Shown piece after piece: positions 1,562 to 29,897 of a DNA stretch of 64,000 nt. The notes below the pieces were generated by a model that ran no database searches, was not told where the DNA came from, and saw only the letters and a program-made list of their open reading frames with translations. The position numbers were made by a program, and so were the translations under genes. The stretch's first letter is position 1. Each line of letters starts with the position of its first letter. The stretch comes from Mycobacteriales bacterium. GTDB taxonomy: Bacteria > Actinomycetota > Actinomycetes > JALYNC01. The DNA is taken from positions 971-64,970 of the forward strand of contig JBBSHH010000002.1 of assembly GCA_038253225.1 (NCBI GenBank). The letters are read 5' to 3'.

Positions 1562-1584
1562 AACTTGCCTCAAACGTCAACGCC

Positions 1585-1618
1585 CTAGCGACCAAGGGTC
1601 GCGACCAAGGGTCGCTAG
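1585..1618. repeat. Nested palindrome with tandem 13-bp unit (GCGACCAAGGGTC x2) immediately 3' of the transposase stop; candidate IS terminal repeat or transposase binding site
   Basis: CTAGCGACC AAGG GTCGCGACC AAGG GTCGCTAG. The outer 9-bp arms CTAGCGACC/GGTCGCTAG form an inverted repeat. The inner GGTCGCGACC is a perfect palindrome. The unit GCGACCAAGGGTC occurs at 1588-1600 and again at 1601-1613. Confidence 0.4.
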
Positions 1619-2334: not shown

Positions 2335-2419
2335 TGGTGGCAGGTGTTGGGTTCGAACCAACGTAGGCTGAGCCGGCGGTTTTACAGACCGCTCCCTTTG
2401 GCCACTCGGGCAACCTGCC
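2335..2419 (-). tRNA. tRNA-Tyr (anticodon GTA), type II with long variable arm, CCA encoded
   Basis: The reverse complement reads GGCAGGTTGCCCGAGTGGCCAAAGGGAGCGGTCTGTAAAACCGCCGGCTCAGCCTACGTTGGTTCGAACCCAACACCTGCCACCA. It has a 7-bp acceptor stem GGCAGGT/ACCTGCC, anticodon loop CTGTAAA, T-loop GGTTCGAACC, a long extra arm typical of Tyr, and discriminator A plus CCA. Confidence 0.85.
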
Positions 2420-2477
2420 GTGGGGTCCGAGGATAGCCGATGGGTGCCGGTCCCAAACGAAGCGGGGAGGCGGACCA

Positions 2478-2969
2478 GTGGCCGACGCGTCGTTCGACGT
2501 GGTGAGCAAGGTGGACCGGCAGGAGGTCGACAACGCGCTGAACCAGGCGGCGAAGGAGGTCGCGCAGCGGTATGACTTCAAGGGGGTCGGCGCCTCGATC
2601 GCGTGGTCCGGGGACGCCGTGGAGATCAAAGCCAACAGCGACGACCGGGTCCGGGCGGTCCTCGAGGTCTTCCAGGAGAAGCTGATCAAGCGCGGCGTCT
2701 CGCTCAAGGCGCTGGACCACGGCGACCCGCAGCCGGCCGGCGGCAGCACGTCCCGGCTGAGCATCAGCGTCCAGCAGGGCATCGACGACGAGAAGGCCAA
2801 GACGATCGCCAAGAAGATCAGGGGTGCCGGCCTCAAGGGCGTGCAGGCGCAGATCCAGGGCGACCAGCTGCGAGTGTCCGGGAAGAAGCGGGACGACCTG
2901 CAGGCGGTTATCGCGCTGCTCAAGGACAGCGACTTCGGCGTACCGCTGCAGTTCGTCAACTACCGCTGA
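2478..2969 (+). CDS. yajQ: YajQ-family (UPF0234) nucleotide-binding protein
   Basis: 163 aa starting [36 protein letters not shown]…, which is the characteristic YajQ N-terminus and length. GTG start at 2478. Confidence 0.85.
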
Positions 2970-2981
2970 GTTCGCCGCGTC

Positions 2982-3002
2982 GAACCGGTGCCGGGCCGGT
3001 TC
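2982..3002. terminator. Hairpin between convergent yajQ and nuoN2 (GAACCGG-N7-CCGGTTC); probable bidirectional terminator
   Basis: 7-bp perfect stem (2982-2988 / 2996-3002) with a 7-nt loop, in the 41-bp gap between two convergent stop codons. Confidence 0.45.
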
Positions 3003-3010
3003 CCTCGGGG

Positions 3011-4519
3011 TCAGCCCCGGCCGGCCAGCGGGGTGATGTGCAGCACCAGCTCGGGGTCGAGGCTGAGCACCACCGTGACCACCACGGCGACGGCGATCGC
3101 CACCGCCACCGGACGGCTGGCCGGGCCGTCCGGCGGCTCGACCGCAGGGACCCCGGCCGACCCCCGGTCCTCCGGGGCGAACAGCAGCGCGGCCAGGCGC
3201 AGGTAGTAGAACAGCGCGACGACGGTGTTGACCGCCATCACGACACCCAGCCACACCACCTCGCCGCGCACCGCCGCGGAGAACACCACGACCTTGGCGA
3301 AGAGCCCGGCCAGGCCCGGTGGCAGCCCGGCCAGGCAGGCGAGGAAGAACGCCAGCGCCAGCGCTACCAGGGGCGAGCGGCGGGCCAGTCCGCGGTAGTC
3401 CGCCACCGCGTTGCGCGGCCGGTCCCCGGCCACCCACACCACGCAGGCAAAGGCGCCGAGCGTCATCGCCGCGTAGAACACGACGTATCCCAGCGTCGCA
3501 GCCGCGGCGTCGTCGAGCACCCGGGCCCGGCCGTACGCCGACGCCGCCACCCCGAGCGGCACCAGCATGTAGCCGGCCTGAGCCACCGAGGACCAGGCCA
3601 GCAGTCGGATGACGTACCGCTGCCGGAGAGCCACCAGGTTGCCCACGGTCATGGTCAGCGCGGCGATAACGGCGAGCATCGGGCCCCACACGTCGGCGTA
3701 GCCGCGGAAACCGACGAGCAGCACGATCAGCAGGCCGGCGAAGCCCGCGGCCTTCGACGCGACCGACAGGAACGCCGCCACCGGCAGCGGGGCGCCCTGG
3801 TAGGTGTCCGGCGCCCAGGCGTGGAACGGCACGGCGGAGACCTTGAACGCGAAGCCGACGATGACCAGCGCGATGCCGGCGGAGGTCACCGGCTGCCGCA
3901 GCCGCGGGCGGGCCAGCGCGGCGGCGACCTGGTCGAGCTGCAGCGAGCCGGTGACGCCGTACACCAGGCTGGCACCGAAGATCAGCACGGCCGTCGCCAA
4001 CACCGAGATCAGGAAGAACTTCAGCGCGGCCTCGCTGGAGCGCGGGTCGGCCCGACGGAAGCCGGCGAGCACGAACACCGGGACCGTGACCACCTCGAGG
4101 GAGAGCACGAGCAGCAGCAGGTCCCGACTGCCGGCCAGAGTGATCATCCCGGTGAGCGAGACCAGCAGCAGGAAGTGGTACTCCCCCGCCGGCAGCCGCT
4201 GCGCCCGCACGGTCGGCTCGGAGAGCAACAACACCACGGCGGTGGCGAGCAGGAAGAGCCCGCTGAACAGCAGGCTGAACCGGTCCACGGCGTAGGAGCA
4301 GCCGCCCGCGGCGGTGCAGAACGTGGACCGGTCGTCGCCGGCGGCCAGCGCCCCGGTGGCCACCATGGCGGCCACGACCCCGGCGAGCGACACCGGCAGC
4401 GCGACCCCGCGCCGGTCCGCCGGGACGAACAGGTCGAGGACGAGGACGCCGAGAGCGGTGCCGACCGCCAGCAGCGGCGGCGCGATCGCTGCGTAGTCGA
4501 TGGAGGCGGCGAAGGGCAC
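3011..4519 (-). CDS. nuoN: Complex-I-like antiporter subunit NuoN2 (second, partial nuo cluster)
   Basis: 502 aa polytopic membrane protein. It carries the NuoN/NuoM-family motifs (…AAFLSVASKAAGFAGLL…, …VGNLVALRQRYVIRLLAWSSVAQAGYML…). It follows nuoM2 after a 7-nt gap. Confidence 0.8.
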   Translation of the reverse strand: MPFAASIDYAAIAPPLLAVGTALGVLVLDLFVPADRRGVALPVSLAGVVAAMVATGALAAGDDRSTFCTAAGGCSYAVDRFSLLFSGLFLLATAVVLLLSEPTVRAQRLPAGEYHFLLLVSLTGMITLAGSRDLLLLVLSLEVVTVPVFVLAGFRRADPRSSEAALKFFLISVLATAVLIFGASLVYGVTGSLQLDQVAAALARPRLRQPVTSAGIALVIVGFAFKVSAVPFHAWAPDTYQGAPLPVAAFLSVASKAAGFAGLLIVLLVGFRGYADVWGPMLAVIAALTMTVGNLVALRQRYVIRLLAWSSVAQAGYMLVPLGVAASAYGRARVLDDAAAATLGYVVFYAAMTLGAFACVVWVAGDRPRNAVADYRGLARRSPLVALALAFFLACLAGLPPGLAGLFAKVVVFSAAVRGEVVWLGVVMAVNTVVALFYYLRLAALLFAPEDRGSAGVPAVEPPDGPASRPVAVAIAVAVVVTVVLSLDPELVLHITPLAGRG

Positions 4520-4526
4520 CCCGAGG

Positions 4527-6011
4527 TCACCCGCCGCCGAGCAGCCGGCGGACCGCAGCGTCGGTCACACCGAGCACGAGTCGTGGGTAGAGACCCAGGA
4601 CCAGGGTGAGCGCGAGCAGCGGCGCCCACGCAGCCAGCTCGACCGACGTGACGTCGCCGAACCGGCGCTCCCGCCACCGCTCCGGCACGACCCCGAGCGT
4701 CACCCGGCGCAGCAGCACCAGCAGGTACACCGCGGTCAGCACCGTACCGACACCGGCCAGCACCATCAGCGTAAGGAACAGCCCGCGGTGCAGGCCCTGC
4801 GCCGGCCGGAACGCCCCCAGCATCGCGAGCATCTCGCCCCAGAACCCGGCCAGCCCCGGCAGCCCGAGGCTCGCGATCGCGGCGAAGGTCAGCAGCCCGC
4901 CCAGCAGCGGCGCCTTGGCCAGCACCCCGCCGCCGATCTCGGCGATGTCCTGCGAGTGGTAGCGGTCCTTGAGCGCGCCGACGAGGAAGAACAGCAGCCC
5001 GGTCACCACCCCGTGCGCGACGTTGGCCAGCAGGGCGGCGTTGACCCCGACCGGGGTCAACGTGGCGATGCCGAGCAGGACGAAGCCCATGTGCCCGACG
5101 CTGGAGTAGGCGATGAGCCGCTTGATGTCGCGTTGTACGAGGCAGCACAGCGCGCCGTAGATGATGCCCACGACGGCGAGCACACCGAGGTACGGCGCGA
5201 AGTCGCGAGCTGCGGCCGGCAGCTCGGTGACCGCGATCCGGACCAGCCCGTAGGTGCCCATCTTCAGCAGCACGCCGGCGAGCAGCACCGAGCCGACGGT
5301 CGGTGCCTCGGTGTGCGCGTCCGGCAGCCAGCTGTGCAGCGGCCACATCGGCGTCTTGACCGCAAAGCCGAGGAACAGCCCGAGGAACGCCAGGTCCTGC
5401 GCCGCCCGGGGCAGGTCGGCGCCGCCTCGCCGGCCCAGCCGGACCATGTCGAACGTTGCGGTGTGCGCGTAGATGACCAGGATGCCGAGCAGCAGCAGCA
5501 CCGAGCCGAGCAGCGTGAACAGGATGAACTTCGTCGCCGCGTAGCTCCGGCGCTCGCCGCCCCAGAGCGCGATGAGGAAGTACATGGGGGCGAGGACGAC
5601 CTCGAAGAACACGAAGAACAGCAGCAGGTCGAGCGCCAGGAACGTGCCCAGCATGCCGACCTCGAGCAGCAGCACCAGCGCCAGGAACGCCCGCGGTCGG
5701 CCGGGCTCGGGCAGGGTCTTCAGGGTGTAGACCGCGCACAGGAAGCTCAGCAGCGTGGTCAGCACCACCAGCGGCAGCGAGATCCCGTCCAGCCCGAGGT
5801 GGAACCGGATGTCCGCGGCCGGCACCCAGGCGCGGTCGACGCCGAGCTGGAAGCCGCCCCGGTGGTAGTCGTACGCCGCGAGCAGCGCCAGGCTCAGCCC
5901 GAACGTCGTGGCCGTGGCGGCGACCCCGATCCGGCGGGCCCAGCGATCCGGCGCCGCGAGCAGCCCGGCGCAGCCGGCCAGGGGCAGGAGGAGCAGCGCG
6001 ACCAGGATCAC
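4527..6011 (-). CDS. nuoM: Complex-I-like subunit NuoM2
   Basis: 494 aa. GTG start ([13 protein letters not shown]…) overlaps the nuoL2 stop (GTGA). Motifs FFVFFEVVLAPMYFLIALWGG, WLPDAHTEAPTVGSVLLAGVLLKMGTYG and LIAYSSVGHMGF are present. The 1126-aa track ORF 4527..7907 is a read-through artefact. Confidence 0.85.
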   Translation of the reverse strand: MILVALLLLPLAGCAGLLAAPDRWARRIGVAATATTFGLSLALLAAYDYHRGGFQLGVDRAWVPAADIRFHLGLDGISLPLVVLTTLLSFLCAVYTLKTLPEPGRPRAFLALVLLLEVGMLGTFLALDLLLFFVFFEVVLAPMYFLIALWGGERRSYAATKFILFTLLGSVLLLLGILVIYAHTATFDMVRLGRRGGADLPRAAQDLAFLGLFLGFAVKTPMWPLHSWLPDAHTEAPTVGSVLLAGVLLKMGTYGLVRIAVTELPAAARDFAPYLGVLAVVGIIYGALCCLVQRDIKRLIAYSSVGHMGFVLLGIATLTPVGVNAALLANVAHGVVTGLLFFLVGALKDRYHSQDIAEIGGGVLAKAPLLGGLLTFAAIASLGLPGLAGFWGEMLAMLGAFRPAQGLHRGLFLTLMVLAGVGTVLTAVYLLVLLRRVTLGVVPERWRERRFGDVTSVELAAWAPLLALTLVLGLYPRLVLGVTDAAVRRLLGGG

Positions 6012-7921
6012 GTCAGCACCGCCACGCCGGCGACCAGCACCAGCACCCCCAGGAACAGCGCGGTCGCGTAGGCCTGCACGTTGCCGTTCTGCAGCCGCCG
6101 GAGCCCACCGCCGGCGAGCCACGCGCCGGAGCCGGACCCGCTCGCCAGCCCGTCGACGCCGGTGACGTCGAAGCCCAGCACCGCCCGGGCCAGTCGCGGC
6201 AGCGGTCGGACCAGCACCGCGTCGTAGAGCTCGTCGAGGTAGAACGCCCGCTCGAAGGGCCGCCGGGCCCGGCCCAGCAGCCGGGCCGGGTCGGCCGCCG
6301 GTGCCCGCCGCCAGCCGGTGTAGGTCACCAGCACCCCGAGCAGGCCGAGCGCGGTGGCGACCAGCGCGGTGCCGGCCTGCGGCCCGAGCGACGGCGTCGG
6401 CGGCGCGGTCAGCGGCAACGGCGTGTAGGCGAAGAACGCGACGTCCCGGCCGTACCCGAGCCAGCCCGGCAGCCAGCCGGAGCGCAGGCCGACGAACCCG
6501 AACGCGGCGGCGGGCAGCGCCAGCAGCAGCAGCGGCACCCGCATCGCGGTCGGCGCCTCCTCGATGACGGCGGTCCCGCGGTAGGTGCCGAAGAACGTCC
6601 GCAGCCACAGCCGGGTGGCGTAGGCCCCGGTCAGCAGCACGGTCAGCATCCCGGCGACGAACACCAGCCAGGCCGCCGGTCGGTCCAGCACCGGCCGCGC
6701 CGCGCCCGTCGCGGCCGCCCACGCCGAGCCGAGCACCGCGTCCTTGCTGAAGAAGCCGCTGAACGGCGGCAGCCCGGCCAGCGCGGCGAGCCCGACCGTC
6801 ATGGTCGCGAACGTGACGGGCAGCCCGCGACGCAGCCCCCCCATCTCGCTCATCAGGTTGGTGCCGACGGTGCGGATCACCGCGCCGGCGCAGAGGAACA
6901 GCAGCGCCTTGAACGCGGCGTGGCTGAGCAGGTGGAACAGGCCGGCGGCGTACCCGCCGACCGCCAGGCCGCCGGTCATGTACGCGAGCTGACTGACCGT
7001 CGAGTACGCCAAGACCCGCTTGAGGTCGTCCTGGGCCAGCGCGGCCAGCGCGCCGAGCAGCATGGTGACGGCGGCGCTGACGGCGAGCACGTCGAGGGTG
7101 ACCGGGGAGAGCACGAACACCGGGTAGAGCCGGGCGACGACGTACACGCCGGCCGCGACCATGGTGGCCGCGTGGATCAGAGCCGAGATCGGGGTCGGCC
7201 CGGCCATCGCGTCGGGCAGCCAGGTGTGCAGCGGGAACTGCGCGCTCTTGCCGACCACCCCGCAGACCAGCAGCAGCGTCCCGACCAGCACCGCGGTGTG
7301 GCCGAGCCGGGGCGCCCGGTCGAGCAGCGCGCTGATCCGGAACGAGCCGGCCGCCGTACCCAGGGTGAAGATGCCGAACAGGAACCCGACGTCCCCCACC
7401 CGGGTGGTGAGGAACGCCTTGACCGCGGCCGCCGAGGCGCTCGGCTGCTGCCAGTAGTGGCCGATGAGGAAGTAGGAGCAGACGCCCATCACCTCCCAGC
7501 CCACGAGCAGCTCGAGCAGGTCGGCGGAGACCACCACGAGCAGCATCGCGGCGGTGAACAGCGACACGAGCGCGGCGTACGACGGGTAGCGAGGGTCGCC
7601 GCGCAGGTAGGCGGTGGAGTAGACCTGCACGAGCAACGCCACTACGCAGACCATGACCGCGACGACCGCGGCCAGCCCGTCGACCCGGGTACCGACGGCG
7701 ATCGGCACGGCCCCGGTGGGGGTCAGCAGCGTGCTCGTCTCCCGGACCCGGCCGGGGTCGCCGAGCACCGCGACGGCCAGCGCCAGCGCCAGCCCGGTGG
7801 GGACGGCGGTGCCGAGGACCGCGACGCCGGCCGGGCCGCCGGGCAGCCGGCGTCCGGCCAGCAGCCCGAGCACCGCGGCGAGGAACGGCACGGCCGGCAC
7901 CAGCCAAGCGGCGCCGGTCAC
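6008..7921 (-). CDS. nuoL: Complex-I-like subunit NuoL2
   Basis: 637 aa. GTG start ([17 protein letters not shown]…) overlaps the nuoK2 stop (GTGA). Motifs [49 protein letters not shown] and [16 protein letters not shown] are present. Confidence 0.85.
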
Positions 7922-8253
7922 CGCTGCAGCTCCGGCTCGGGCGGGTCGACGTCGGCGAGCTCCCGGACCCGGTCGATGTCGATCGACTCCCGGTTGCGGT
8001 AGACCAGCAGCACGATTGCGAGACCGACGCCCACCTCGGCGGCGGCGACGACGATCACGAACAGCGCGAACACCTGGCCGCCGAGCAGCCGGTCCTGCAG
8101 GTAGACGCTGAACGCGACCAGGTTGACGTTCGCACCGTTGAGCATCAGCTCGACCGACATCAGCACGAGCACCGCGTTGCGCCGGGCCAGCACGCCGTAC
8201 ACCCCGAGCGCGAACAGCCCGGCGGCGAGCAGTAGCGGGTAGACGAGGTGCAC
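7918..8253 (-). CDS. nuoK: Complex-I-like subunit NuoK2
   Basis: 111 aa starting [49 protein letters not shown]…. The GTG start overlaps the nuoJ2 TAG stop (TAGTG). The upstream part of the 256-aa track ORF is an Arg-rich artefact. Confidence 0.8.
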
Positions 8254-8852
8254 TACGGCGCTCCGCGTCCGTCGGGCGGCCGGTCGGCGCCGATGTCCGG
8301 GCGGGACAGCACGATCGCGCCAACCAGCGCGGCCAGCAGCAGCACCGAGGCGACCTCGAACGGCAGCACGAAATAGCGGAAGATCGCCCCGCCGGTGGCC
8401 GCCGGGCCACCGGGTGCGGTGTCGAGGTCGACGTAGGCCGCCCGGAACCCGTCGACGAGCAGCCCGCCGAGCGCGCCGAACGTCGCGACCGCGGCGAGCA
8501 GCGCCGCCGGCCGGTTCGCGCTGTCGAGGTCGGCGCTGCGCCCGATCGGGGCCCGGGTGAGCATGGCCCCGAAGAGCAGCAGCACCACGACAGCGCCGAC
8601 GTAGATCAGCACCTGCACCCAGGCGACGAACTCGGCGGTCAGCAGCAGATAGCAGCCGGCGACCGCGCCGAGCGCGACGACCAGCCATAGGGCCGCGTGA
8701 ATGACGTTGCGGGTGGTGACGACGAGCACGCCGGCCGCGAGCGCCAGCAGCGCCAACGCGACGAACACCGCCTCCTGCGGATCCCAGCCGAGGAAGCCCG
8801 GCGCGGTGCGGGGCACCGGCAGCGCACCGGCGAGCAGGTCAGCCGGGCTCAC
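8253..8852 (-). CDS. nuoJ: Complex-I-like subunit NuoJ2
   Basis: 199 aa from GTG (VSPADLLAG…) preceded by GGAGA. The protein is NuoJ-like (…[18 protein letters not shown]…). The upstream portion of the track ORF is junk. Confidence 0.7.
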
Positions 8853-9390
8853 GGCGTGGTCTCCGTTCGGCCCGGGCCGCGGTCGGGACGTCTCCGCGGG
8901 CGACCTGGACCTCCTTCGGCGTCTCCCCGGCCGGGTCGAGCGCCGGGGGCGGCGGCACCGTCCACATCCACTCGCGGAGCCGGTCCTTCTCGTGGGTGAG
9001 CTCGCTGACGTCGTACGTCGCGTACTCGAACTCCGGCGACCAGAACAGCGCGTCGAACGGGCAGACCTCGATGCAGATCCCGCAGTACATGCACAGGGCG
9101 AAGTCGATCGCGAACCGGTCGAGGATGTTGCGGGTCCGGGCCCGGGCGCCGGGCTCGCGCGGCGGGACGGTCTCCTTGTGCGAGTCGATGTAGATGCACC
9201 AGTCGGGGCACTCCCGGGCGCAGAGCATGCAGACCGTGCAGTTCTCCTCGAACAGCGCGATGACACCGCGGGACCGGGGCGGTAGCTCAGGCTTGAGGTC
9301 CGGGTACTGCGCGGTCACCGCCGGCCGCAGCATCGTGCGCAGCGTGACCGCGAGCCCGCGGGCCAACCCGCCGCCGGGCGGTCCGGTCAC
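8839..9390 (-). CDS. nuoI: Complex-I-like subunit NuoI2 (2x[4Fe-4S] ferredoxin)
   Basis: 183 aa. GTG start ([31 protein letters not shown]…) overlaps the nuoH2 stop (GTGA). It has two CxxCxxCxxxCP motifs ([15 protein letters not shown] and [12 protein letters not shown]). Confidence 0.85.
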
Positions 9391-10379
9391 CGGCGCACCA
9401 CCTCCACGACCCCGGTGAGCAGCAGCTGCCCGAACGCGAGCGGCACCAGCGTCAGCCAGGCGAAGCGCTGCAGCTGGTCCTCTCGCAGCCGGGGGTAGCT
9501 GACCCGCAGCCAGATCACGAGGAAGGACAGCGCGAGCACCTTGACCAGCGTCCAGAGCCAGCCGAGCTGGACGTCGAGGAACGGCCCCTTCCAGCCGCCG
9601 AGGAACAGCACGGTGGTCAGCGCCGCGAACACCACGATGCCGGCGTACTCGGCCAGCAGGAAGAACGCGAACCGCAGCCCGGTGTACTCGGTGAGCGGTC
9701 CGAACACCAGCTCGGAGTCGGCGTAGGGCATGTCGAACGGCGGCCGCCGCAGCTCGGCGAGGCCGGCGGTGAAGAAGATGACGCCGGCCACCCCCTGGTA
9801 GGGCAGCCACCACCAGTGCCAGGCCTGCGCAATGCCGGTCAGCGACAACGTGCCGGCGGCCATGGCCGCGGACGCTGCGGCGAGCACCAGCGGCAGCTCG
9901 TAGGCCATCAGCTGGGCCGCCGCCCGCAGGCCGCCGAGCAGCGCGTACTTGTTCGCGCTGGCCCAGCCCGCCATCAGCGTCCCGAGGACCCCCACCCCGG
10001 CCATCGCGAGCGCGAAGAAGATGCCGACGTCGAGCTCCTGCGCGACCTGCTCGCCCGGACCGACCGGGACGACGAGCAGCACCAGCAGGTAGGGGAGCAG
10101 CTGCACCACCGGGGCGAGTCGGAACACCGCCCGGTCGGCGGCGGCCGGCACGATCTCCTCCTTCTGGACGAACTTCACGCCGTCGGCGACGAGCTGAGCC
10201 CAGCCATGGAACCCGCCGGCGTACATCGGGCCGACCCGGGCCTGCATGTGCGCCATCGCCTTGTGCTCCAGCTGCCCGACCAGCAGCGGCAGGGTGAGGA
10301 ACGCGACCAGGCAGCCGAGCAGCTTGGCGGCGACCTCAATCCACAGCGGCAGGCTCACCGGCTCGACTCCGGTCCCCAC
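9387..10379 (-). CDS. nuoH: Complex-I-like subunit NuoH2
   Basis: 330 aa. NuoH-family motifs are present (…[35 protein letters not shown]…, …[40 protein letters not shown]…). It is clearly a divergent paralogue of nuoH at 22652..23956. Confidence 0.85.
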
Positions 10380-10921
10380 TCCGCCGGGTCGGGCACCCCG
10401 AGCGGGCCCATCCGGCGCCGACCCGGTGCCCCCTCGGCGCCCTCCCCCGGCTCCTTGGCCCCCGGCCAGGCCTTGGCGACCCGGGAGGCGAGCACGAAGG
10501 TCTTGCGCAGCGGGTGGCCCTCGAAGCCCTCCGGCAGCAGCAGCGGCACCAGGTTGGGGTGACCGTCGAACGTGATCCCGAACATCTCGAAGGTCTCCCG
10601 CTCGTGCCAGCCGGCGCCGCGGAACACCGGGAGCAGGCTCGGCAGCCGGGGCGCCTCGACCGGCACCCGGGTGCGGAGCAGCACGTGGAAGCGGCGGTCG
10701 ATCGCGTAGAGGTGCAGCACCACCGCGAAGCCCTCGGCCAGCAGGTCGTAGGCCGAGAGCCAGTCGAAGAACCGGGCGCCCAGCTCGTCCCTGGCGAACG
10801 TCGCGGCGGCCACCCAGCTGGCCGCCGGCACCTCGACGGTGACCTGGCCGTACGCCGGCTCGAGCACCGCCTCGACGCCGAAGCGGTCGACGAACGCGGC
10901 GCCGACCTGCTCCGGTGTCAC
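10355..10921 (-). CDS. nuoC: Complex-I-like subunit NuoC2 (30 kDa subunit, short)
   Basis: 188 aa. It carries the NuoC signature …[41 protein letters not shown]…. The GTG start overlaps the nuoB2 stop (GTGA). Confidence 0.85.
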
Positions 10922-11511
10922 CGGCTGCCCGGCGGCCGGACCAACGCCTGCTGCAGCGCCGCGTCCGGCAGGGCCGGGCGGACCGGGGCGGGGCGGTAGC
11001 GGTCGCCGAGCGACTCGCGGCCGATCTTGTCCTGCAACCGCAGGATCCCGTGCAGCAGCGCCTCCGGCCGGGGTGGGCAGCCGGGCACGTAGACGTCGAC
11101 CGGGATGATCTGGTCGACGCCCTTCGTGACGCAGTAGCTGTCCCAGTAGGGACCGCCGCAGTTCGAGCAGGCGCCGAAGGAGATGACGTACTTGGGCTCC
11201 GGCATCTGCTCGTAGAGTCGGCGCACCGCCGGCGCCATCTTGTCGGTCACGGTGCCGGAGACCACCATCAGGTCGGCCTGACGCGGCCCGTGGGCGAACG
11301 GGATGACACCGAGGCGGATGAAGTCGTGGCGGGACATCGAACTGGCGATGAACTCGATCGCGCAGCAGGCCAGCCCGAAGTTGAACACCCAGAGGCTGTA
11401 CTTGCGGCCCCAGTTCAGCACGAAACGCATCGGCGCCGGAACCTCGGCCCCGAGCACACCGATGCCCTCCGCCGGCTCGGGCCGCCGACGGATCGTCGGG
11501 ATCAGGTCCAC
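10918..11511 (-). CDS. nuoB: Complex-I-like subunit NuoB2 (N2 cluster subunit)
   Basis: About 197 aa from GTG ([10 protein letters not shown]…), which overlaps the nuoA2 stop. The cysteine ligands of cluster N2 are retained ([29 protein letters not shown]). The 639-aa track ORF 10918..12837 is a read-through artefact. Confidence 0.85.
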
Positions 11512-11915
11512 GTCAGCACCTTCTTGCGCCAGGCGTAGAGCAACCCGACGGCCAGCAACCCCAGGAAGATCACCATCTCGACCAGCGGGGCCACCCCGAA
11601 CGCGGGCAGCGCGAACACCGTCGCCCACGGGAACAGGAACACCGCGTCGACGGCGAAGACGACGTAGAGGAAAGCGAAGACGTAGTAGCGGATCTGGCTC
11701 TGGGCCCAGCCGTCGCCGACCGGGTCGAGCCCGCACTCGTAGCTGGTGAGCTTCTCCGGGGTCCGCCGGTAGGGCCGCAGCAGCCGGTTCGCGGTGAAGG
11801 CGACGGTGACGAAGCCGATGCCGAGGAGCGCCAACAGGGCGAGCATCGCGTAGCTGGCGATGTAGCCGTCCAGATCGCCACCTCCCGCATCCTCGCGCGC
11901 ATCGTAGGCCGCCAC
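11502..11915 (-). CDS. nuoA: Complex-I-like subunit NuoA2
   Basis: 137 aa (or about 114 aa from the internal Met). It carries the NuoA motif …[40 protein letters not shown]…. Confidence 0.8.
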
Positions 11916-12006
11916 CGCGGCTTCGGCCGGATTCCCAGGCCCATCGCGGCGTACGATAGGCGGTCGGCGTCACCCAGGACGGGGCGCGCCACAGGAGGCC
12001 TCCGGC

Positions 12007-13857
12007 GTGACCAAGCAGGTGCGGCAGCTCGACCGCGTGGTGATCCGCTTCGCCGGCGACTCCGGCGACGGGATGCAGCTCACCGGTGACCGGTTCACCG
12101 CCGAGACCGGCGCGTTCGGAAACGACCTGTCCACGTTGCCCGATTTCCCGGCCGAGATCCGCGCCCCGGCCGGCACCCTGCCGGGGGTGTCCGCGTTCCA
12201 GCTGCACTTCTCCGACCATGAGATCCTCACCCCGGGCGACGCGCCGGACGTGCTCGTGGCGATGAACCCGGCGGCGCTCAAGGCCAACGTCCGGGACCTG
12301 CGCAAGGGCGCCGACATCATCGTCAACACCGACGAGTTCACCAAGCGCAACCTCACCAAGGTCGGGTACGCCGCCAGCCCGCTCGACGACGGCTCGCTGG
12401 AGGAGTACCGGGTGCACCCGGTGGCGCTGACGTCGATGACGATCACCGCGTTGGCGGCGTACGACATCGGCAAGAAGGACGCCGGGCGGGCCAAGAACAT
12501 GTTCGCGCTCGGCCTGCTCTCCTGGCTGTACAACCGGCCGACCGAAGGGACGCTCGAGTTCCTCGCGAAGAAGTTCGCGAAGCAGCCGGAGATCGCCAAG
12601 GGCAACGTCGCGGCGTTCCAGGCCGGCTGGAGCTTCGGGGAGACCACCGAGTCGTTCTCGGTCAGCTACGAGGTCAAGCCGGCCGTGATGCGGCCCGGGA
12701 CCTACCGCAACGTCTCCGGGAACCTGGCCTTGGCCTACGGGCTGATCGCCGGCTCCCGGCTCAGCGGGCTGCCGTTGTTCCTCGGCTCGTACCCGATCAC
12801 CCCGGCGTCGGACATCCTGCACGAGCTGAGCCGGCACAAGCGGTTCGGGGTGCGGACCTTCCAGGCCGAGGACGAGATCGCCGGCATCGGCGCGGCCCTC
12901 GGGGCCGCCTTCGGTGGCGCGCTGGGGGTCACCACGACCAGCGGGCCCGGGGTGGCGCTGAAGTCCGAGACGATCGGCCTGGCGGTCTCGATCGAGCTGC
13001 CGCTGGTCATCTGCGACATCCAGCGTGGCGGTCCGTCCACCGGGCTGCCGACCAAGACCGAGCAGTCAGACCTGCTGCAGGTGATGTTCGGCCGCAACGG
13101 CGAGGCACCGGTGCCGATCGTGGCGCCGCGGTCGCCGGCGGACTGCTTCGACGCAGCGATCGAGGCGGTCCGGATCGCTACGAAGTACCGCACGCCGGTC
13201 TTCGTGCTCTCCGACGGCTACCTCGCCAACGGCTCCGAGCCGTGGCTGCTGCCGGACGTCGGCGGGCTGCCGGACCTGCGGGTCGAGTTCACCACCGCGC
13301 CCAACGGCCCGGACGGTGAGTTCCTGCCGTTCCGGCGCGACCCCGAGACGCTGGCCCGGCCGTGGGCGGTGCCCGGCACCCCGGGCCTGGAGCACCGGAT
13401 CGGCGGCCTGGAGAAGGCCGACGGCACCGGCAACATCTCCTACGACCCGGCCAACCACGACACGATGGTGCGGCTGCGCGCGGCGAAGATCGACGGCATC
13501 GCCCGCGACATCCCGCCGCTGGAGGTCGACGACCCGTCCGGGCGGGCCGGCGTGCTCGTCCTCGGGTGGGGATCGACGTACGGGCCGATCGGCGCGGCGG
13601 TGCGGCGGATCCGGGACGAGGGCGGCGCGGTCGCGCAGGCCCACCTGCGTCACCTGCACCCGTTCCCCACCAACACCGGCGAGGTGCTCCGGCGATACGA
13701 CCGGGTGCTCGTGCCGGAGATGAACCTGGGCCAGCTGGCGATGCTGCTGCGGGCCCGCTACCTCGTCGACGTCATCACCTACAACCAGGTCCGCGGGATG
13801 CCGTTCCAGGCAGCCGAGCTGGCCGGAGTGCTCCGGGACGTGATCGACAGTGACTGA
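12007..13857 (+). CDS. korA: 2-oxoglutarate:ferredoxin oxidoreductase alpha subunit (KorA, 2-oxoacid:acceptor oxidoreductase)
   Basis: 616 aa. GTG start with the SD sequence ACAGGAGG. The protein is KorA-typical along its whole length (…[38 protein letters not shown]…, [12 protein letters not shown]…). It is divergent from nuoA2, separated by a 91-bp gap. Confidence 0.9.
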
Positions 13858-14911
13858 CCCGCAGCTCCACCTCGGTGCCCTCGACCTGGTGCCGAAGTCC
13901 GGGGAGAAGCAGACCGCGAAGGACTTCAAGACCGACCAGGAGGTCCGCTGGTGCCCCGGCTGCGGGGACTACGCGATCCTGGCGGCGGTGCAGGGCTTCC
14001 TGCCCGAGCTGGGGCTGCGCCGGGAGAACATCGTGTTCGTCTCCGGCATCGGCTGCTCCTCGCGTTTCCCGTACTACATGAACACCTACGGGATGCACTC
14101 GATCCACGGTCGGGCGCCGGCGATCGCCACCGGGCTGGCCACCTCCCGCCCCGACCTGTCCGTGTGGGTGATCACCGGGGACGGCGACGGGCTCTCGATC
14201 GGCGGCAACCACCTCATCCACGCGCTGCGCCGGAACGTCAACCTCAAGATCCTGCTGTTCAACAACCGGATCTACGGGCTGACGAAGGGCCAGTACAGCC
14301 CCACCTCGGAGCTCGGGAAGGTCACCAAGTCGACGCCGCTGGGCTCGCTGGACTACCCGTTCAACCCGGTCTCGCTCGCACTCGGGGCGGAGGCGTCGTT
14401 CGTCGCCCGCACCGTCGACTCCGACCGGCGGCACCTCACCTCGGTGCTGCGGGCGGCCGCCGAGCACCGCGGCACCGCGTTCGTGGAGATCTACCAGAAC
14501 TGCAACATCTTCAACGACGGCGCGTTCGAGGCGATCAAGGACCCGGACACCCGCGAGGACGTGACGATCCGGCTCGAGCACGGCGAGCCGATCCGGTTCG
14601 GCCGGCCGGGCGCGGAGAAGGTGGTACGCCGGACCGCCGGGGGCGGCGTCGAGGTGGTCGACGGCACCGGTCCGGCGGCGGCCGAGGCCGTCGTCTTCGA
14701 CGCCCACGCCGCCGAGCCGATGCTGGCCTTCGCGCTGTCCCGACTGGCCGACGCCACCGGCGGCTACACCCCGATCGGGGTGTTCCGCGACGTCGTCCGA
14801 CCGGTGTACGACGACCTGATGCGCGAGCAGCTGGAGCGGGCCGAGGCGACCTCCGGCCCCGGCGAGCTCGCCGAGCTGCTCACCAGCGGCGACACCTGGC
14901 GCATCGGCTAG
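13850..14911 (+). CDS. korB: 2-oxoglutarate:ferredoxin oxidoreductase beta subunit (KorB, TPP-binding)
   Basis: 353 aa. It has the CPGCGDY motif, GIGCSSRFPYYMNTYGMHSIHGRAPAIATG, and the TPP motif GDGDGLSIGGNHL. It overlaps korA by 8 nt. Confidence 0.9.
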   Translation: MTDPQLHLGALDLVPKSGEKQTAKDFKTDQEVRWCPGCGDYAILAAVQGFLPELGLRRENIVFVSGIGCSSRFPYYMNTYGMHSIHGRAPAIATGLATSRPDLSVWVITGDGDGLSIGGNHLIHALRRNVNLKILLFNNRIYGLTKGQYSPTSELGKVTKSTPLGSLDYPFNPVSLALGAEASFVARTVDSDRRHLTSVLRAAAEHRGTAFVEIYQNCNIFNDGAFEAIKDPDTREDVTIRLEHGEPIRFGRPGAEKVVRRTAGGGVEVVDGTGPAAAEAVVFDAHAAEPMLAFALSRLADATGGYTPIGVFRDVVRPVYDDLMREQLERAEATSGPGELAELLTSGDTWRIG

Positions 14912-14924
14912 CCCGGCCGGCGGG

Positions 14925-15917
14925 TCAGCCGGTGCGGGCGACGACGAAGTCGCAGAGCGCCTCGAGCGCACCGCGGGCCGGTACGTCGGGCAGCGGCGCC
15001 AGCACCGAGCGGGCCTCCTCGGCCCAGGCCCGCAGCGCCCCCCGGGACCGCTCCATCGCCGGGTGTGCCCGCAGCAGCCGCAGCGCCTCGGCGTGCCGCC
15101 CGTCGTCGGTCAGGTCGCCCGCCAGCAGCTCCCGCAGCCGACCCGAGCCCGCGTCGTCGGCGGCCAGCGCGTAGAGCACCGGCAGCGTGCGGATCCCTTC
15201 GCGCAGGTCCGTGCCGGGGGTCTTGCCGGACTGGCCCGTCTCGCTGGCCACGTCGAGCAGGTCGTCGGAGAGCTGGAAGGCAACCCCGATCCGCTCGCCG
15301 TAGCGGGTGAGCACCTCCACCGCGGTCGGGTCGCCACCGGAGAGCAGCGCCCCGAGCCGGCCGGAGGTGGCGATCAGCGACCCGGTCTTCTCCGCCACCA
15401 CCTGCAGGTAGTGCGCGACCGCGTCGGCGCCCGGCGAGGGTCCCACGGTCTCCCGGATCTGCCCCTCGCACATCACCGCGATCGTGCGGGACAGGATCCG
15501 GGTCGCCTCGGTACCGAGGTCGGCGGTGATCTCCGACGCCCGGGCAAACAGGAAGTCCCCGGTCAGGATCGCGATCGTGTTGCTCCAGCGGGCGTTGGCC
15601 GACACGGCCCCGCGGCGTACGGCCGCCTCGTCCATCACGTCGTCGTGGTAGAGCGTCGAGAGGTGCGTCAGCTCGATCGCCGCCGCCGCCGGGACAACGC
15701 CCGGCGCGTGCGGGTCGGCGAGCGCCGCGGCAAGGAGCACCACCAGCGGCCGGAACCGCTTCCCGCCGGCGTCGACGAGGTGCCGGGAGGCCTCGGTGAC
15801 GAACGGGTAGTCGCTCTTCACCGACGAACGCAGCAGCGCCTCCACCGCGTCCAGCCCACCCCTGACGTCGGCCTCGAGGACCGGGTCGGTGAACGGGATG
15901 CCCAGCGAGGACGGCAC
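14925..15917 (-). CDS. Polyprenyl-diphosphate synthase (trans-isoprenyl diphosphate synthase, HepT/GrcC1-like)
   Basis: About 330 aa from GTG (VPSSLGIPF…), preceded by GGGAG and located 23 nt after the nuoN stop. It has FARM (LYHDDVMDE) and SARM (QLSDDLLD) motifs. The 859-aa track ORF 14925..17504 is a read-through artefact. Confidence 0.85.
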   Translation of the reverse strand: MPSSLGIPFTDPVLEADVRGGLDAVEALLRSSVKSDYPFVTEASRHLVDAGGKRFRPLVVLLAAALADPHAPGVVPAAAAIELTHLSTLYHDDVMDEAAVRRGAVSANARWSNTIAILTGDFLFARASEITADLGTEATRILSRTIAVMCEGQIRETVGPSPGADAVAHYLQVVAEKTGSLIATSGRLGALLSGGDPTAVEVLTRYGERIGVAFQLSDDLLDVASETGQSGKTPGTDLREGIRTLPVLYALAADDAGSGRLRELLAGDLTDDGRHAEALRLLRAHPAMERSRGALRAWAEEARSVLAPLPDVPARGALEALCDFVVARTG

Positions 15918-15940
15918 GGCGGCGGGCTCCCAGTCCTCGG

Positions 15941-28547: not shown

Positions 28548-28548
<1 letters not shown>
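27712..28548 (-). CDS. nuoE: NADH-quinone oxidoreductase subunit E (2Fe-2S), with an acidic low-complexity C-terminal tail of about 100 aa
   Basis: 278 aa from ATG (MPLTEQTVAQAREIVARYPKPRSALLPMLHLVQ…), overlapping the nuoD stop (ATGA). Cluster N1a cysteines are present (CTNLSCQLLG…ECLAACDYAP). The track ORF 27712..29442 is a read-through artefact. Confidence 0.88.

Positions 28549-29893
<1,345 letters not shown>

Positions 29894-29897
<4 letters not shown>

What the first reader, a model, noticed from the sequence alone, without database searches (positions are those of the whole stretch)
3011..14911. Second, NADH-module-less complex-I-like operon (nuoA2B2C2-H2I2J2K2L2M2N2) divergently paired with korAB: candidate ferredoxin:quinone oxidoreductase
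The window holds two full sets of membrane-arm genes. The canonical 14-gene nuoA-N lies at 15941-31552. A second, clearly divergent paralogous set lies at 3011-11915; for example NuoH2 is 330 aa against NuoH's 434 aa, and NuoC2 is 188 aa against NuoC's 215 aa. The second set has no nuoE, nuoF or nuoG, which form the NADH-oxidising N-module.

Its redox subunits still look competent. NuoB2 keeps all N2 cysteine ligands (CCAIE / GACSNCGG / GCPPRP). NuoI2 keeps both CxxCxxCxxxCP motifs. All four antiporter-like and membrane subunits (H, J, K, L, M, N, A) are present with overlapping start/stop codons, which argues against pseudogene decay.

The cluster is transcribed divergently, across a 91-bp gap, from korAB, the 2-oxoglutarate:ferredoxin oxidoreductase that produces reduced ferredoxin. 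By analogy with the 11-subunit Fpo/NDH-1 ancestors that take electrons from ferredoxin or F420 rather than NADH, this looks like an energy-conserving ferredoxin (from Kor) : menaquinone oxidoreductase. Menaquinone genes flank both nuo clusters.
Basis: partly seen in the sequence, partly recalled or inferred. Interest (0 to 1): 0.72.

Follow-up and report, generated by a model that had tools for sequence, protein, structure and literature searches.

The report
NuoD-less second complex I beside korAB
The window carries an intact second, ten-gene respiratory complex-I-like operon (the actinomycete "nuo2" cluster) that lacks the NADH-oxidising subunits and also the quinone-site subunit NuoD, and its iron-sulfur subunits stay next to the 2-oxoglutarate:ferredoxin oxidoreductase genes in relatives, which points to an untested electron route from the TCA cycle into the membrane.

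Summary
Window 3011-11915 (- strand) encodes ten intact, translationally coupled genes, nuoA2-B2-C2-H2-I2-J2-K2-L2-M2-N2. They are 29-53% identical to the canonical nuoA-N at 15941-31552. There is no nuoE, F or G, and also no nuoD, because the nuoC2 stop overlaps the nuoH2 start.

The cluster is the orthologue of the Streptomyces nuo2 cluster (SCO4599-4608). That cluster is expressed, and its function is described as unclear.

All iron-sulfur cysteines and every proton-pump residue I checked are invariant in 62-117 orthologues, so it is not decaying.

In 200 related loci I found three architectures:
- Rare 11-gene clusters with their own short NuoD and no adjacent kor.
- The NuoD-less 10-gene form, with korAB upstream in 74 of 83 loci.
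- A 3-gene nuoB2-C2-I2 operon, with korAB upstream in 14 of 17 loci.

So the FeS trio B2-C2-I2 is the unit linked to Kor.

The best reading is a non-NADH, Kor/ferredoxin-fed, menaquinone-reducing pump that needs a NuoD supplied in trans. A hybrid with Nuo1 subunits, or a truly NuoD-less enzyme, remains possible. The ferredoxin hypothesis is supported only by gene context.

The parts
11502..11915 (-). nuoA2 (137 aa)
   Evidence: PF00507, 110 bits. Orthologue similarity begins at residues 1-18, which supports the GTG start at 11915. The E. coli D79 position is Ala in 102 of 102 NuoD-less orthologues, but Asp in the 3 NuoD-containing relatives.
10918..11511 (-). nuoB2 (197 aa), carrier of the N2-type [4Fe-4S] cluster
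   Evidence: TIGR01957 216 bits, above the 142.7 cutoff. The four Cys (E. coli C63, C64, C129, C158) and E67, D77, D94 are invariant in 110 NuoD-less orthologues. The closest solved homologues are true complex I PSST/NuoB (175-189 bits), against 99-123 bits for MBH, MBS and FHL.
10355..10921 (-). nuoC2 (188 aa), with a conserved C-terminal tail [14 protein letters not shown]...RRRMxPPGVPDxxWGP
   Evidence: PF00329, 121 bits, but TIGR01961 gives 99.3 bits, below the 122.45 cutoff, whereas NuoC1 scores 143.7. The tail is conserved in alignment A1. In the AF2 model, residues 1-127 form a confident NuoC fold, while residues 128-177 have pLDDT below 50 even though much of that stretch is strongly conserved.
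9387..10379 (-). nuoH2 (330 aa, or 323 aa from the GTGA-overlap start at 10358)
   Evidence: PF00146, 332 bits. E36, D63, K70, E71, R148, E157, D213, E220, E228, R286 and R291 are kept. The family-specific changes are R37 to His (117 of 117) and E216 to a hydrophobic residue.
8839..9390 (-). nuoI2 (183 aa), 2x[4Fe-4S], the presumed electron entry point
   Evidence: All eight Cys are invariant. TIGR01971 gives 98.4 bits, below the 113 cutoff, whereas NuoI1 scores 143.4. There are weak hits to the PorD/KorD and OGOR delta ferredoxin-like subunits. The tail [15 protein letters not shown] is conserved.
8253..8852 (-). nuoJ2 (199 aa)
   Evidence: PF00499, 122 bits. Y59 and G61 are invariant in 69 orthologues.
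7918..8253 (-). nuoK2 (111 aa)
   Evidence: PF00420, 98 bits. E36 and E72 are invariant.
6008..7921 (-). nuoL2 (637 aa), antiporter-like subunit of full NuoL length
   Evidence: TIGR01974 514 bits, above the 407.5 cutoff, and matched over the whole model. E144, D178, K229, H254, H334, H338, K342 and K399 are invariant in 67 orthologues.
4527..6011 (-). nuoM2 (494 aa)
   Evidence: TIGR01972, 546 bits. E144, K234, K265, H322, H348 and E407 are invariant in 64 orthologues.
3011..4519 (-). nuoN2 (502 aa)
   Evidence: TIGR01770 351 bits, above the 332.6 cutoff. E133, K217, H224, D229, K247 and K395 are invariant in 62 orthologues.
11916..12006 (.). 91-bp divergent intergenic region between nuoA2 and korA
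   Evidence: An AGGAGG ribosome-binding site precedes the korA GTG, and there is a TACGAT -10-like hexamer. I found no consensus sigma-70 site, no Rex operator and no motif conserved with the six directly adjacent relatives.
12007..13857 (+). korA, alpha subunit of a two-subunit 2-oxoacid:acceptor oxidoreductase
   Evidence: TIGR03710 658 bits, above the 482.75 cutoff. PF01558 + PF01855 + PF17147. The best solved homologue is Magnetococcus OGOR 6N2N, 265 bits over residues 11-605.
13850..14911 (+). korB, beta subunit (TPP site and one [4Fe-4S] site; no delta/ferredoxin domain)
   Evidence: NF008820 260 bits and TIGR02177 247.6 bits, just below the 261.9 cutoff. PF02775. The CPGC...GCSS...NCN cysteines and the GDGD motif are visible in the translation.
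28548..29897 (-). nuoD of the canonical operon, the only NuoD in the window and a candidate trans partner
   Evidence: NF004739, 582 bits. There is no other NuoD-like ORF in the window.

Best explanation
The cluster is this organism's copy of the actinomycete nuo2 operon. It derives from an 11-subunit, N-module-less, complex-I-like enzyme and has lost its own nuoD.

It encodes a complete electron wire: two [4Fe-4S] clusters in NuoI2 and the N2-type cluster in NuoB2. It also encodes a complete proton-pumping membrane arm (A2, H2, J2, K2, L2, M2, N2).

The most likely mechanism (inferred, not shown) runs as follows. KorAB oxidises 2-oxoglutarate. Its low-potential electrons reach NuoI2 through a ferredoxin or by direct docking. 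They pass to N2 and reduce menaquinone at a site completed by a NuoD supplied in trans, most simply NuoD of the neighbouring nuo1. Quinone reduction then drives proton pumping. This would conserve the extra energy of a roughly -500 mV donor that NADH-linked complex I cannot use.

What is shown: subunit identities, intactness, strict conservation of the catalytic residues, orthology to Streptomyces nuo2, absence of nuoD/E/F/G in cis in every NuoD-less and mini locus examined, and conserved linkage of the B2-C2-I2 core to korAB.

What is inferred: the donor, the acceptor, the direction of electron flow, and the source of NuoD.
For: - Subunit identities.
- All 12 FeS cysteines and all checked pump residues in K, J, L, M and N are invariant in 62-117 orthologues, which are only 48-87% identical overall.
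- B2, I2 and H2 are the most conserved subunits, at 69-87% identity.
- B2 and H2 match quinone-reducing complex I far better than MBH, MBS or FHL.
- korA is upstream and divergent in 74 of 83 NuoD-less loci and 14 of 17 mini loci, across Streptomycetales, Streptosporangiales and Mycobacteriales MAGs. This holds despite different insertions between the two gene sets.
- The mini operon nuoB2-C2-I2 keeps exactly the FeS trio next to korAB. That requires separate losses of A2, H2 and J2-N2.
- C2 and I2, which in known structures face NuoD and NuoG, are the divergent subunits and fall below their family cutoffs, while C1 and I1 pass. This argues against binding of the Nuo1 N-module.
- KorAB is the delta-less two-subunit type and needs an external acceptor.
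- The acceptor of mycobacterial KOR is unknown (PMC2773412).
- The donor of 11-subunit complex-I-like enzymes is an open question, with PFOR plus ferredoxin proposed (PMC11238625).
- nuo2 is transcribed as an operon, and its proteins are detected in Streptomyces (PMC3765725, PMC9739823).
- The NuoC2 segment that packs on NuoD in known structures is invariant but unstructured when modelled alone, which implies a partner.
Against: - No NuoD is present in cis in the window or in any NuoD-less or mini locus, and no trans NuoD could be identified.
- No relocated D2 orthologue appears among the best 120 homologues.
- No ferredoxin gene is in the window.
- Adjacency could be inherited synteny, because most loci come from a few lineages.
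- M. tuberculosis has KorAB without nuo2 (my knowledge).
- In Streptomyces, 4 kb of two-component genes separate kor from nuo2.
- NuoD-less forms carry changes near the quinone site and E-channel: NuoA D79 to Ala, invariant in NuoD-less forms only, plus the family-wide NuoH R37 to His and E216 to hydrophobic. These may mean non-canonical chemistry.
- The mini-type B2 and I2 have lost their membrane-arm contact segments, so the trio can evidently work without any pump.
Confidence: 0.42

Rival explanations
1. Hybrid NADH dehydrogenase. Nuo2 supplies alternative A, B, C and H-N subunits, which assemble with NuoD, E, F and G made from nuo1. This gives a second NADH:menaquinone isoenzyme, for example with different regulation or stoichiometry. 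Under this reading korAB is a neighbour by descent only.
For: - The missing genes D, E, F and G form one contiguous block of the canonical gene order, and all four are present 4-18 kb away in nuo1.
- Hybrid assembly is what the Streptomyces literature proposes (PMC9239103, PMC3765725).
- Intact pump residues imply a canonical quinone site.
Against: - The ancestral relatives are 11-gene clusters that never had E, F or G, so only D was lost.
- I2 and C2 are only 33-36% identical to I1 and C1 and fall below the family cutoffs, so they are poor candidates to bind the same NuoG and NuoD.
- The kor linkage is kept much better than other synteny.
- The mini operons have no membrane arm of their own, yet retain kor.
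Confidence: 0.2
2. A truly NuoD-less enzyme. NuoB2-C2-I2 is a three-cluster electron-acceptor module dedicated to the delta-less KorAB, with NuoI2 acting like the missing delta subunit. KorAB or another protein occupies the place of NuoD. In the 10-gene form the module sits on a pump; in the 3-gene form it is soluble.
For: - The FeS trio is the unit retained with korAB through three separate deletions.
- NuoD-containing relatives lack an adjacent kor (0 of 3), whereas NuoD-less and mini forms have it (88 of 100).
- NuoA D79 to Ala tracks the loss of nuoD exactly, 102 of 102 against 0 of 3.
- NuoI2 gives weak hits to the PorD/KorD and OGOR delta models.
- No D2 orthologue was found in named NuoD-less taxa.
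Against: - In all solved complex I, MBH, MBS and FHL structures, the NuoD homologue is the hub that holds B, C and I and forms the catalytic site (established knowledge).
- NuoC's invariant NuoD-binding motif is retained.
- Coupling to an intact pump without a NuoD-type quinone site has no precedent.
- The correlations rest on perhaps a single evolutionary event.
- Streptomyces is reported to have an unlinked nuoD2 (PMC3765725).
Confidence: 0.2
3. Spare-parts model. Only some Nuo2 subunits, for example the antiporter-like L2 and M2, are swapped into Nuo1, as cyanobacteria do with NdhD/NdhF isoforms. There is no separate Nuo2 complex.
For: Proposed in PMC3765725 and PMC8388888 on the basis of a conserved antisense RNA opposite nuoL2/nuoM2.
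Against: All ten genes are translationally coupled and co-conserved in one order. The most constrained subunits are B2, I2 and H2, not L2 and M2. The mini form keeps no antiporter-like subunit at all.
Confidence: 0.08
4. A decaying, non-functional duplicate.
For: It lacks four subunits considered essential.
Against: All ORFs are intact. Catalytic residues are invariant across at least 100 loci from several orders. Transcripts and proteins are detected in Streptomyces (PMC3765725, PMC9739823).
Confidence: 0.02

Closest known systems
Streptomyces nuo2 cluster (S. coelicolor SCO4599-SCO4608; S. avermitilis and S. venezuelae equivalents)
   Same: The gene order A2-B2-C2-H2-I2-J2-K2-L2-M2-N2 is the same, with no D, E, F or G. 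Identity to about 55 Streptomyces loci is 49-87%. korAB is upstream. It is orthologous.
   Different: In Streptomyces the AbrC1-3 two-component genes (about 4 kb) lie between korA and nuoA2, and NuoC2 carries a long Pro/Ala/Arg-rich repeat extension. In the window korA and nuoA2 are 91 bp apart, and nuo1 is only three genes away. The function is unknown in both (PMC9239103).
11-subunit complex-I-like enzymes (nuoABCDHIJKLMN) of Actinomycetota MAGs, Firmicutes such as Desulfitobacterium hafniense, and others
   Same: There is no N-module. The Q-module FeS sites and the membrane arm are the same. The donor is proposed to be ferredoxin from a 2-oxoacid oxidoreductase (PMC11238625). The closest NuoD-containing relatives share the NuoC2 tail and NuoH R37H / E216-hydrophobic.
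   Different: Those clusters encode their own short NuoD, keep NuoA D79, and are not next to korAB. The window's cluster has no NuoD.
Campylobacter jejuni complex I fed by flavodoxin from 2-oxoglutarate:acceptor oxidoreductase (Weerakoon & Olson 2008, cited in PMC3765725 and PMC4453560)
   Same: It works like the proposed route: 2-oxoglutarate oxidation, then a low-potential carrier, then a complex I without NuoE/F, then quinone.
   Different: C. jejuni keeps NuoD and NuoG and has two replacement subunits for E and F. Its OOR is a four-subunit enzyme. No gene adjacency of the kind seen here has been reported.
Cyanobacterial/chloroplast NDH-1 (ferredoxin:plastoquinone oxidoreductase)
   Same: The core has 11 subunits without an N-module, and ferredoxin donates at the NdhI side. 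B2 and H2 match NdhK and NdhA at 170-190 bits.
   Different: NDH-1 has NdhH (NuoD) and dedicated ferredoxin-docking subunits (NdhS, V, O). Neither a NuoD nor any extra small ORF is present in the window's cluster.
Canonical NuoA-N of the same window (15941-31552)
   Same: All ten shared subunits are homologous, with the same FeS ligands and pump residues.
   Different: Identity is only 29-53%. Nuo1 has D, E, F and G, and each subunit tested (A, B, C, H, I) passes its actinobacterial equivalog or family cutoff. Among the same subunits of Nuo2, A2, C2, H2 and I2 do not.

Membership tests
Respiratory complex I, 14-subunit NADH:quinone oxidoreductase (NuoA-N) | NADH-oxidising N-module (NuoE, NuoF, NuoG) encoded with the complex | tested here: not met
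   The window has no E, F or G homologue outside nuo1, and no F or G hit appears in any of the 80 genome loci.
Respiratory complex I, 14-subunit NADH:quinone oxidoreductase (NuoA-N) | NuoD (49-kDa subunit) forming the quinone site with NuoB and NuoH | tested here: not met
   nuoC2 overlaps nuoH2. tblastn with D1 and D2 finds no second NuoD in the window or in any NuoD-less locus. A NuoD supplied in trans could not be tested.
Respiratory complex I, 14-subunit NADH:quinone oxidoreductase (NuoA-N) | Membrane arm with conserved Glu/Lys/His pump residues in NuoL, M, N, K and J, and NuoL of full length | tested here: met
   All checked residues are invariant in 62-69 orthologues. NuoL2 matches the whole TIGR01974 model.
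11-subunit complex-I-like enzymes (NDH-1 / Fpo core / nuoABCDHIJKLMN) | Eleven core genes, including nuoD, in one cluster | tested here: not met
   There are ten genes and D is absent. The closest relatives that do meet this feature are L086, L087, L203 and L204.
11-subunit complex-I-like enzymes (NDH-1 / Fpo core / nuoABCDHIJKLMN) | Q-module FeS wire: N2 in NuoB and two [4Fe-4S] clusters in NuoI | tested here: met
   All 4 + 8 Cys are invariant.
11-subunit complex-I-like enzymes (NDH-1 / Fpo core / nuoABCDHIJKLMN) | Use of a non-NADH donor (ferredoxin, flavodoxin or F420H2) | not testable with these tools
   There is only context evidence, namely the korAB linkage. No donor-docking subunit (FpoF, NdhS/V/O) or ferredoxin gene is present.
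Actinomycete nuo2 cluster (Streptomyces SCO4599-4608 type) | Gene order A2-B2-C2-H2-I2-J2-K2-L2-M2-N2 without D-G, orthologous sequences, and a second canonical nuo in the genome | tested here: met
   The order is the same in all 137 NuoD-less loci. Identity to Streptomyces, Actinomadura and other taxa is 48-87%. The canonical nuo is in the window.
Group 4 membrane-bound hydrogenases / MBS / FHL and Mrp antiporters | NiFe large-subunit homologue and Mrp-type small subunits; closest sequence affinity to MbhJ/MbhM | tested here: not met
   B2 scores 113-123 bits to MBH/MBS against 175-189 bits to complex I. H2 scores 52 bits to MBS against 183-199 bits. There is no large-subunit homologue.
Two-subunit 2-oxoglutarate:ferredoxin oxidoreductase (KorAB; M. 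tuberculosis Rv2454c/55c, Magnetococcus OGOR) | Alpha subunit with POR + POR_N + PFOR_II domains, beta subunit with a TPP site and a single [4Fe-4S] site, and no delta ferredoxin domain | tested here: met
   plus the Cys and GDGD motifs in the translation.
Two-subunit 2-oxoglutarate:ferredoxin oxidoreductase (KorAB; M. tuberculosis Rv2454c/55c, Magnetococcus OGOR) | Specificity for 2-oxoglutarate and the identity of the physiological acceptor | not testable with these tools
   Specificity is inferred from homology only. The acceptor is unknown even for the characterised mycobacterial enzyme (PMC2773412).

The most novel reading that the evidence does not exclude
KorAB plus NuoB2-C2-I2 would form a new kind of enzyme. 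In it, a complex-I Q-module that has dispensed with NuoD is the built-in electron acceptor of a delta-less 2-oxoglutarate oxidoreductase. In the 10-gene form present in this window, this would be a proton-pumping 2-oxoglutarate:menaquinone oxidoreductase, that is, a TCA-cycle step wired directly to a complex-I pump with no NADH, no free ferredoxin and no NuoD. The 3-gene form would be its soluble or peripheral version.
Probability: 0.15. Interest if true: 0.88.

Novelty: new variant of a known kind. Interest (0 to 1): 0.6.

Why it matters
NuoD is regarded as indispensable in every member of the complex I / membrane-bound hydrogenase superfamily. A widespread, strictly conserved, expressed cluster that keeps everything except NuoD and the N-module is therefore either a case of obligatory subunit sharing between two respiratory complexes or a new architecture.

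Two open questions become testable in a tractable organism such as Streptomyces coelicolor:
- What donates electrons to N-module-less complex-I-like enzymes (PMC11238625).
- What the physiological acceptor of actinobacterial KorAB is (PMC2773412).

The gene-context series bears on both. It runs from the 11-gene form without kor, to the 10-gene NuoD-less form with kor, to the 3-gene B2-C2-I2 form with kor. It points to specific pull-down, activity and deletion experiments.

If the Kor link holds, aerobic actinomycetes would conserve the energy of a low-potential TCA-cycle step. That is relevant to their redox balance and to antibiotic-production physiology.

Tried and rejected
- Rex operator (TTGTGAA-N6-TTCACAA, up to 3 mismatches): none anywhere in the window, although a rex gene is present.
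- Consensus promoter and terminator scan of 2200-16000: nothing above the shuffled expectation.
- Alignment of the korA-nuoA2 intergenic region with the six directly adjacent relatives: no conserved motif beyond -10-like TAnnnT hexamers.
- Rfam scan: no RNA family in or next to the cluster.
- Search for a hidden or degenerate NuoD between C2 and H2, or anywhere in 200 loci, using D1 and D2 as queries: none except in L086, L087 and L139.
- Attempt to find an unlinked actinomycete NuoD2 with the representative-library search on NuoD1: 150 unnamed representatives, none recognisable. This was a dead end.
- Homologue search with the short D2 of L087: only uncultured Actinomycetes, Nitriliruptorales and Egibacteraceae among the best 120 (at least 67% identity). 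A relocated D2 in Streptomyces or Actinomadura is therefore neither found nor excluded.
- Look-up of the window's own contig by exact protein failed. It is an actinomycete with about 72% GC, and its best NuoC2 relatives are about 70% identical.
- Genes inserted between korA and nuoA2 in Streptosporangiales: Pro-rich membrane proteins and deacetylase-like proteins, with no ferredoxin and no NuoD.
- The idea that the NuoC2 C-terminal tail replaces NuoD: rejected, because NuoD-containing relatives have the same tail (they were found through that motif).
- The idea that a shorter NuoH2 means truncation: rejected.

Full report
**What is in the sequence**

The window is about 72% GC. On the - strand between 3011 and 11915 there are ten ORFs. 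Pfam and NCBIfam identify them one by one as NuoA, B, C, H, I, J, K, L, M and N.

With the start codons chosen from the reading frames, the genes are:
- A2: 11502-11915
- B2: 10918-11511
- C2: 10355-10921
- H2: 9387-10379 (or 10358)
- I2: 8839-9390
- J2: 8253-8852
- K2: 7918-8253
- L2: 6008-7921
- M2: 4527-6011
- N2: 3011-4519

Neighbouring genes overlap by 1-14 bases or are 7 bases apart, which indicates translational coupling.

korA (12007-13857) and korB (13850-14911) lie divergently across 91 bp. They belong to the two-subunit 2-oxoacid:acceptor oxidoreductase family (TIGR03710, 658 bits; domains). Their best solved relative is the Magnetococcus 2-oxoglutarate:ferredoxin oxidoreductase 6N2N.

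The canonical nuoA-N at 15941-31552 contains NuoD, E, F and G. The two sets are only 29-53% identical, so this is an old paralogy and not a recent duplication.

The second set lacks nuoD as well as nuoE/F/G. The nuoC2 stop overlaps the nuoH2 start. tblastn with the window's NuoD, and with a NuoD from the closest NuoD-containing relatives, finds no second NuoD anywhere in the window. The cluster therefore has 10 subunits, not the 11 of Fpo/NDH-1-type enzymes. In all solved members of this superfamily, NuoD forms the quinone or catalytic site with NuoB and NuoH (established structural knowledge).

**It is a known cluster of unknown function**

Streptomyces papers describe a second set, nuoA2, B2 and H2-N2, transcribed as one operon, with a conserved antisense RNA opposite nuoL2/M2 and with 'nuoD2' encoded elsewhere (PMC3765725, PMC8388888). 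A 2022 paper states that its function is unclear and suggests hybrid assembly with Nuo1 (PMC9239103). Proteomics detects the SCO4599-4608 products (PMC9739823).

A scan of one genome per species with a NuoC2 alignment matched at least 588 species. The 80 best loci come from Streptomyces, Actinomadura, Actinoallomurus, Spirillospora, Nonomuraea and uncultured Mycobacteriales/Actinomycetes. All of them show the same gene order, at 48-87% identity to the window's proteins, and none has a NuoD, F or G hit. Its NuoC2 is at most about 70% identical to anything else.

**It is under strong purifying selection**

I aligned the sequences with E. coli NuoA-N (locus L081). The following residues are invariant in 62-117 orthologues:
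- The four N2 cysteines and E67, D77 and D94 of NuoB.
- The eight cysteines of NuoI.
- NuoK E36 and E72.
- NuoJ Y59 and G61.
- The TM5 Glu, TM7 Lys, TM8 Lys/His and TM12 Lys/Glu of NuoL, M and N.
- Most conserved charged residues of NuoH.

B2, I2 and H2 are the best conserved subunits. B2 and H2 resemble quinone-reducing complex I (175-199 bits) far more than MBH, MBS or FHL (52-123 bits).

Family-specific substitutions sit around the quinone site and E-channel: NuoH R37 to His, NuoH E216 to a hydrophobic residue, and NuoA D79 to Ala.

The two subunits that face NuoD and NuoG in known structures, NuoC2 and NuoI2, are the divergent ones. They fall below the NuoC and NuoI family cutoffs (99 against 122 bits, and 98 against 113 bits), whereas NuoC1 and NuoI1 pass. 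Both carry conserved C-terminal tails.

An AF2 model of NuoC2 gives a confident NuoC fold for residues 1-127. Confidence is low for the strongly conserved stretch 128-177, as expected for a segment that needs a partner.

**The kor linkage**

Among NuoD-less loci with at least 1.5 kb upstream, korA is present upstream and divergent in 74 of 83. Only L059, L069 and L091 have enough flank to count as real negatives.

The spacing ranges from 51 bp to about 8 kb:
- Directly adjacent in the window and in MAG relatives L003, L004, L006, L027, L037 and L054.
- About 4 kb in Streptomyces, where the AbrC1-3 two-component genes are inserted.
- 2-4 kb in Streptosporangiales, with unrelated inserted genes.

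By contrast, yajQ downstream is kept in only 6 of 35 loci, and the polyprenyl synthase next to korB in only 2. The kor-nuo2 linkage is therefore more than general synteny. However, the sample is dominated by a few lineages, so the statistics are not independent.

**Three architectures**

A metagenome scan for the invariant NuoC2 tail motif WPGAKEPGE gave 120 more loci. Classifying all 200 loci gave the following.

(i) Three loci (L086, L087, L139) have a NuoD between C2 and H2.
- Their NuoD is a short type. It keeps the HPxxHG histidines, lacks the 'MEALIHHFK' insertion, and has Trp in place of the quinone-site Tyr.
- Its homologues occur in uncultured Actinomycetes, Nitriliruptorales and Egibacteraceae, in ordinary nuoABCDHIJKLMN clusters.
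- None of these loci has kor next to it.
- All keep NuoA D79.

(ii) 137 loci have the NuoD-less 10-gene form, like the window. All have NuoA Ala79 (102 of 102).

(iii) 34 loci have only nuoB2-nuoC2-nuoI2.
- These three genes overlap one another.
- Typically korB-korA lies divergently upstream and yajQ convergently downstream. Examples are L202 from a Streptosporangiaceae MAG and L142, L146 and L022.
- korA is adjacent in 14 of 17 loci with enough flank.
- All 12 cysteines are retained.
- The N-terminal segments of B2 and I2, which in complex I lie on NuoH, are gone.

yajQ is the downstream neighbour in both the full and the mini forms. The mini form therefore arose in place by separate losses of A2, H2 and J2-N2, keeping exactly the three FeS-module genes. 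That is strong evidence that B2-C2-I2 is a functional unit in its own right, and that it is the part tied to KorAB.

**Mechanism**

Shown:
- An intact FeS wire and an intact pump.
- No N-module and no NuoD in cis.
- Orthology to an expressed Streptomyces operon.
- Linkage of the FeS trio to a delta-less KorAB that needs an external acceptor.

Inferred: electrons from 2-oxoglutarate oxidation enter at NuoI2, through a ferredoxin or by direct docking. They reach N2 and reduce menaquinone, and this drives the pump.

Canonical coupling needs a NuoD-type quinone site, and NuoC2 keeps its NuoD-binding motif. I therefore think a NuoD supplied in trans is the most likely solution for the 10-gene form. 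This could be NuoD1, 17 kb away, or an unlinked nuoD2 as reported for Streptomyces. I could not test it.

The scheme resembles the 2-oxoglutarate oxidoreductase, flavodoxin, complex I route of Campylobacter and the PFOR, ferredoxin, 11-subunit enzyme proposal for Desulfitobacterium (PMC4453560, PMC11238625). It would also answer the open question of the acceptor of actinobacterial KOR (PMC2773412). The direction could be reversed, with pmf-driven ferredoxin reduction; nothing here decides that.

**Rivals**

- A hybrid NADH dehydrogenase sharing NuoD-E-F-G of Nuo1. The literature favours this, and the contiguous D-G gap fits it. It is weakened by the 11-gene ancestry, by the divergence of C2 and I2, and by the mini operons.
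- A truly NuoD-less enzyme, in which KorAB or another protein takes NuoD's place. The co-occurrence of NuoD loss, the NuoA D79A change and the kor linkage favours this. The hub role of NuoD in every known structure, and the possibility that all three changes reflect one evolutionary event, weigh against it.
- A spare-parts reservoir for Nuo1.
- Decay, which the conservation data effectively exclude.

**Verdict**

The cluster itself is already known as Streptomyces nuo2, but it is uncharacterised. The ferredoxin/Kor interpretation is plausible. Gene context now supports it better than before, notably the mini nuoB2-C2-I2 operons beside korAB. It remains unproven, and the analogy to 11-subunit enzymes fails on NuoD.

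I rate it a new variant of a known kind, with moderate to high interest. It challenges the assumed indispensability of NuoD (or implies obligatory subunit sharing), and it makes two open bioenergetic questions directly testable.

Noticed in passing
L010, L020, L025, L066 (between nuoH2 and nuoI2); Streptomyces loci such as L023 5238-8831: AbrC-type two-component genes lie between korA and nuoA2 in Streptomyces (two histidine kinases plus a response regulator). They have orthologues (response regulator 65-69% identical) inserted inside the nuo2 cluster, between nuoH2 and nuoI2, in Actinoallomurus and one Actinomadura. The same regulator family is thus tied to nuo2 at two different insertion points. 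It is absent from the window.
   Followed up: partly
L007, L006, L020 and other Streptosporangiales loci, between nuoH2 and nuoI2: The nuo2 cluster is split after nuoH2 by 1-7 kb of unrelated genes (an MFS transporter, xanthine-dehydrogenase-type subunits, hydrolases), yet both halves stay intact.
   Followed up: partly
L023 9452-11368 and other Streptomyces loci: Streptomyces NuoC2 continues after the conserved tail into a low-complexity extension of roughly 300 aa, with repeated RPPRR(S/T)RSA(A/S)DGSAS units. This accounts for the 0.6-1.1 kb 'gap' between nuoC2 and nuoH2. The Arg-rich repeats might bind an acidic partner such as ferredoxin, but that is pure speculation.
   Followed up: no
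L086 6796-7872, L087 5152-6228: The NuoD of the 11-gene relatives has Trp where complex I has the quinone-binding Tyr (DRxDY becomes NRHDW). It also lacks the 'MEALIHHFK' insertion.
   Followed up: partly
window 51832-51915 (+): c-di-GMP-I-GGC riboswitch aptamer (RF03167, 62 bits against a gathering score of 59, E = 3e-12). A YajQ-family c-di-GMP-binding protein is encoded at 2478-2969, right after nuoN2.
   Followed up: no
window 47907-48794 (-): A Rex-type redox-sensing repressor gene (PF06971 + PF02629). It sits near genes that by eye encode heme biosynthesis (HemL-like 40573-42489, uroporphyrinogen methyltransferase/HemD fusion 44094-45824) and cytochrome c biogenesis (about 35.6-40 kb). 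No Rex operator consensus is found anywhere in the window, not even upstream of nuoA.
   Followed up: partly
window 2335-2419 (-) and 22-1875 (+): tRNA-Tyr lies just beyond yajQ. The long ORF 22-1875 has no Pfam or NCBIfam match, and its codon-position GC pattern is ambiguous, so it may not be a gene.
   Followed up: no
L173, L183: In two metagenome contigs the mini operon nuoB2-C2-I2 follows directly, on the same strand, after nuo1 (L, M, N) and the polyprenyl synthase, with no korAB in between. This is compatible with the trio working together with Nuo1 components.
   Followed up: no
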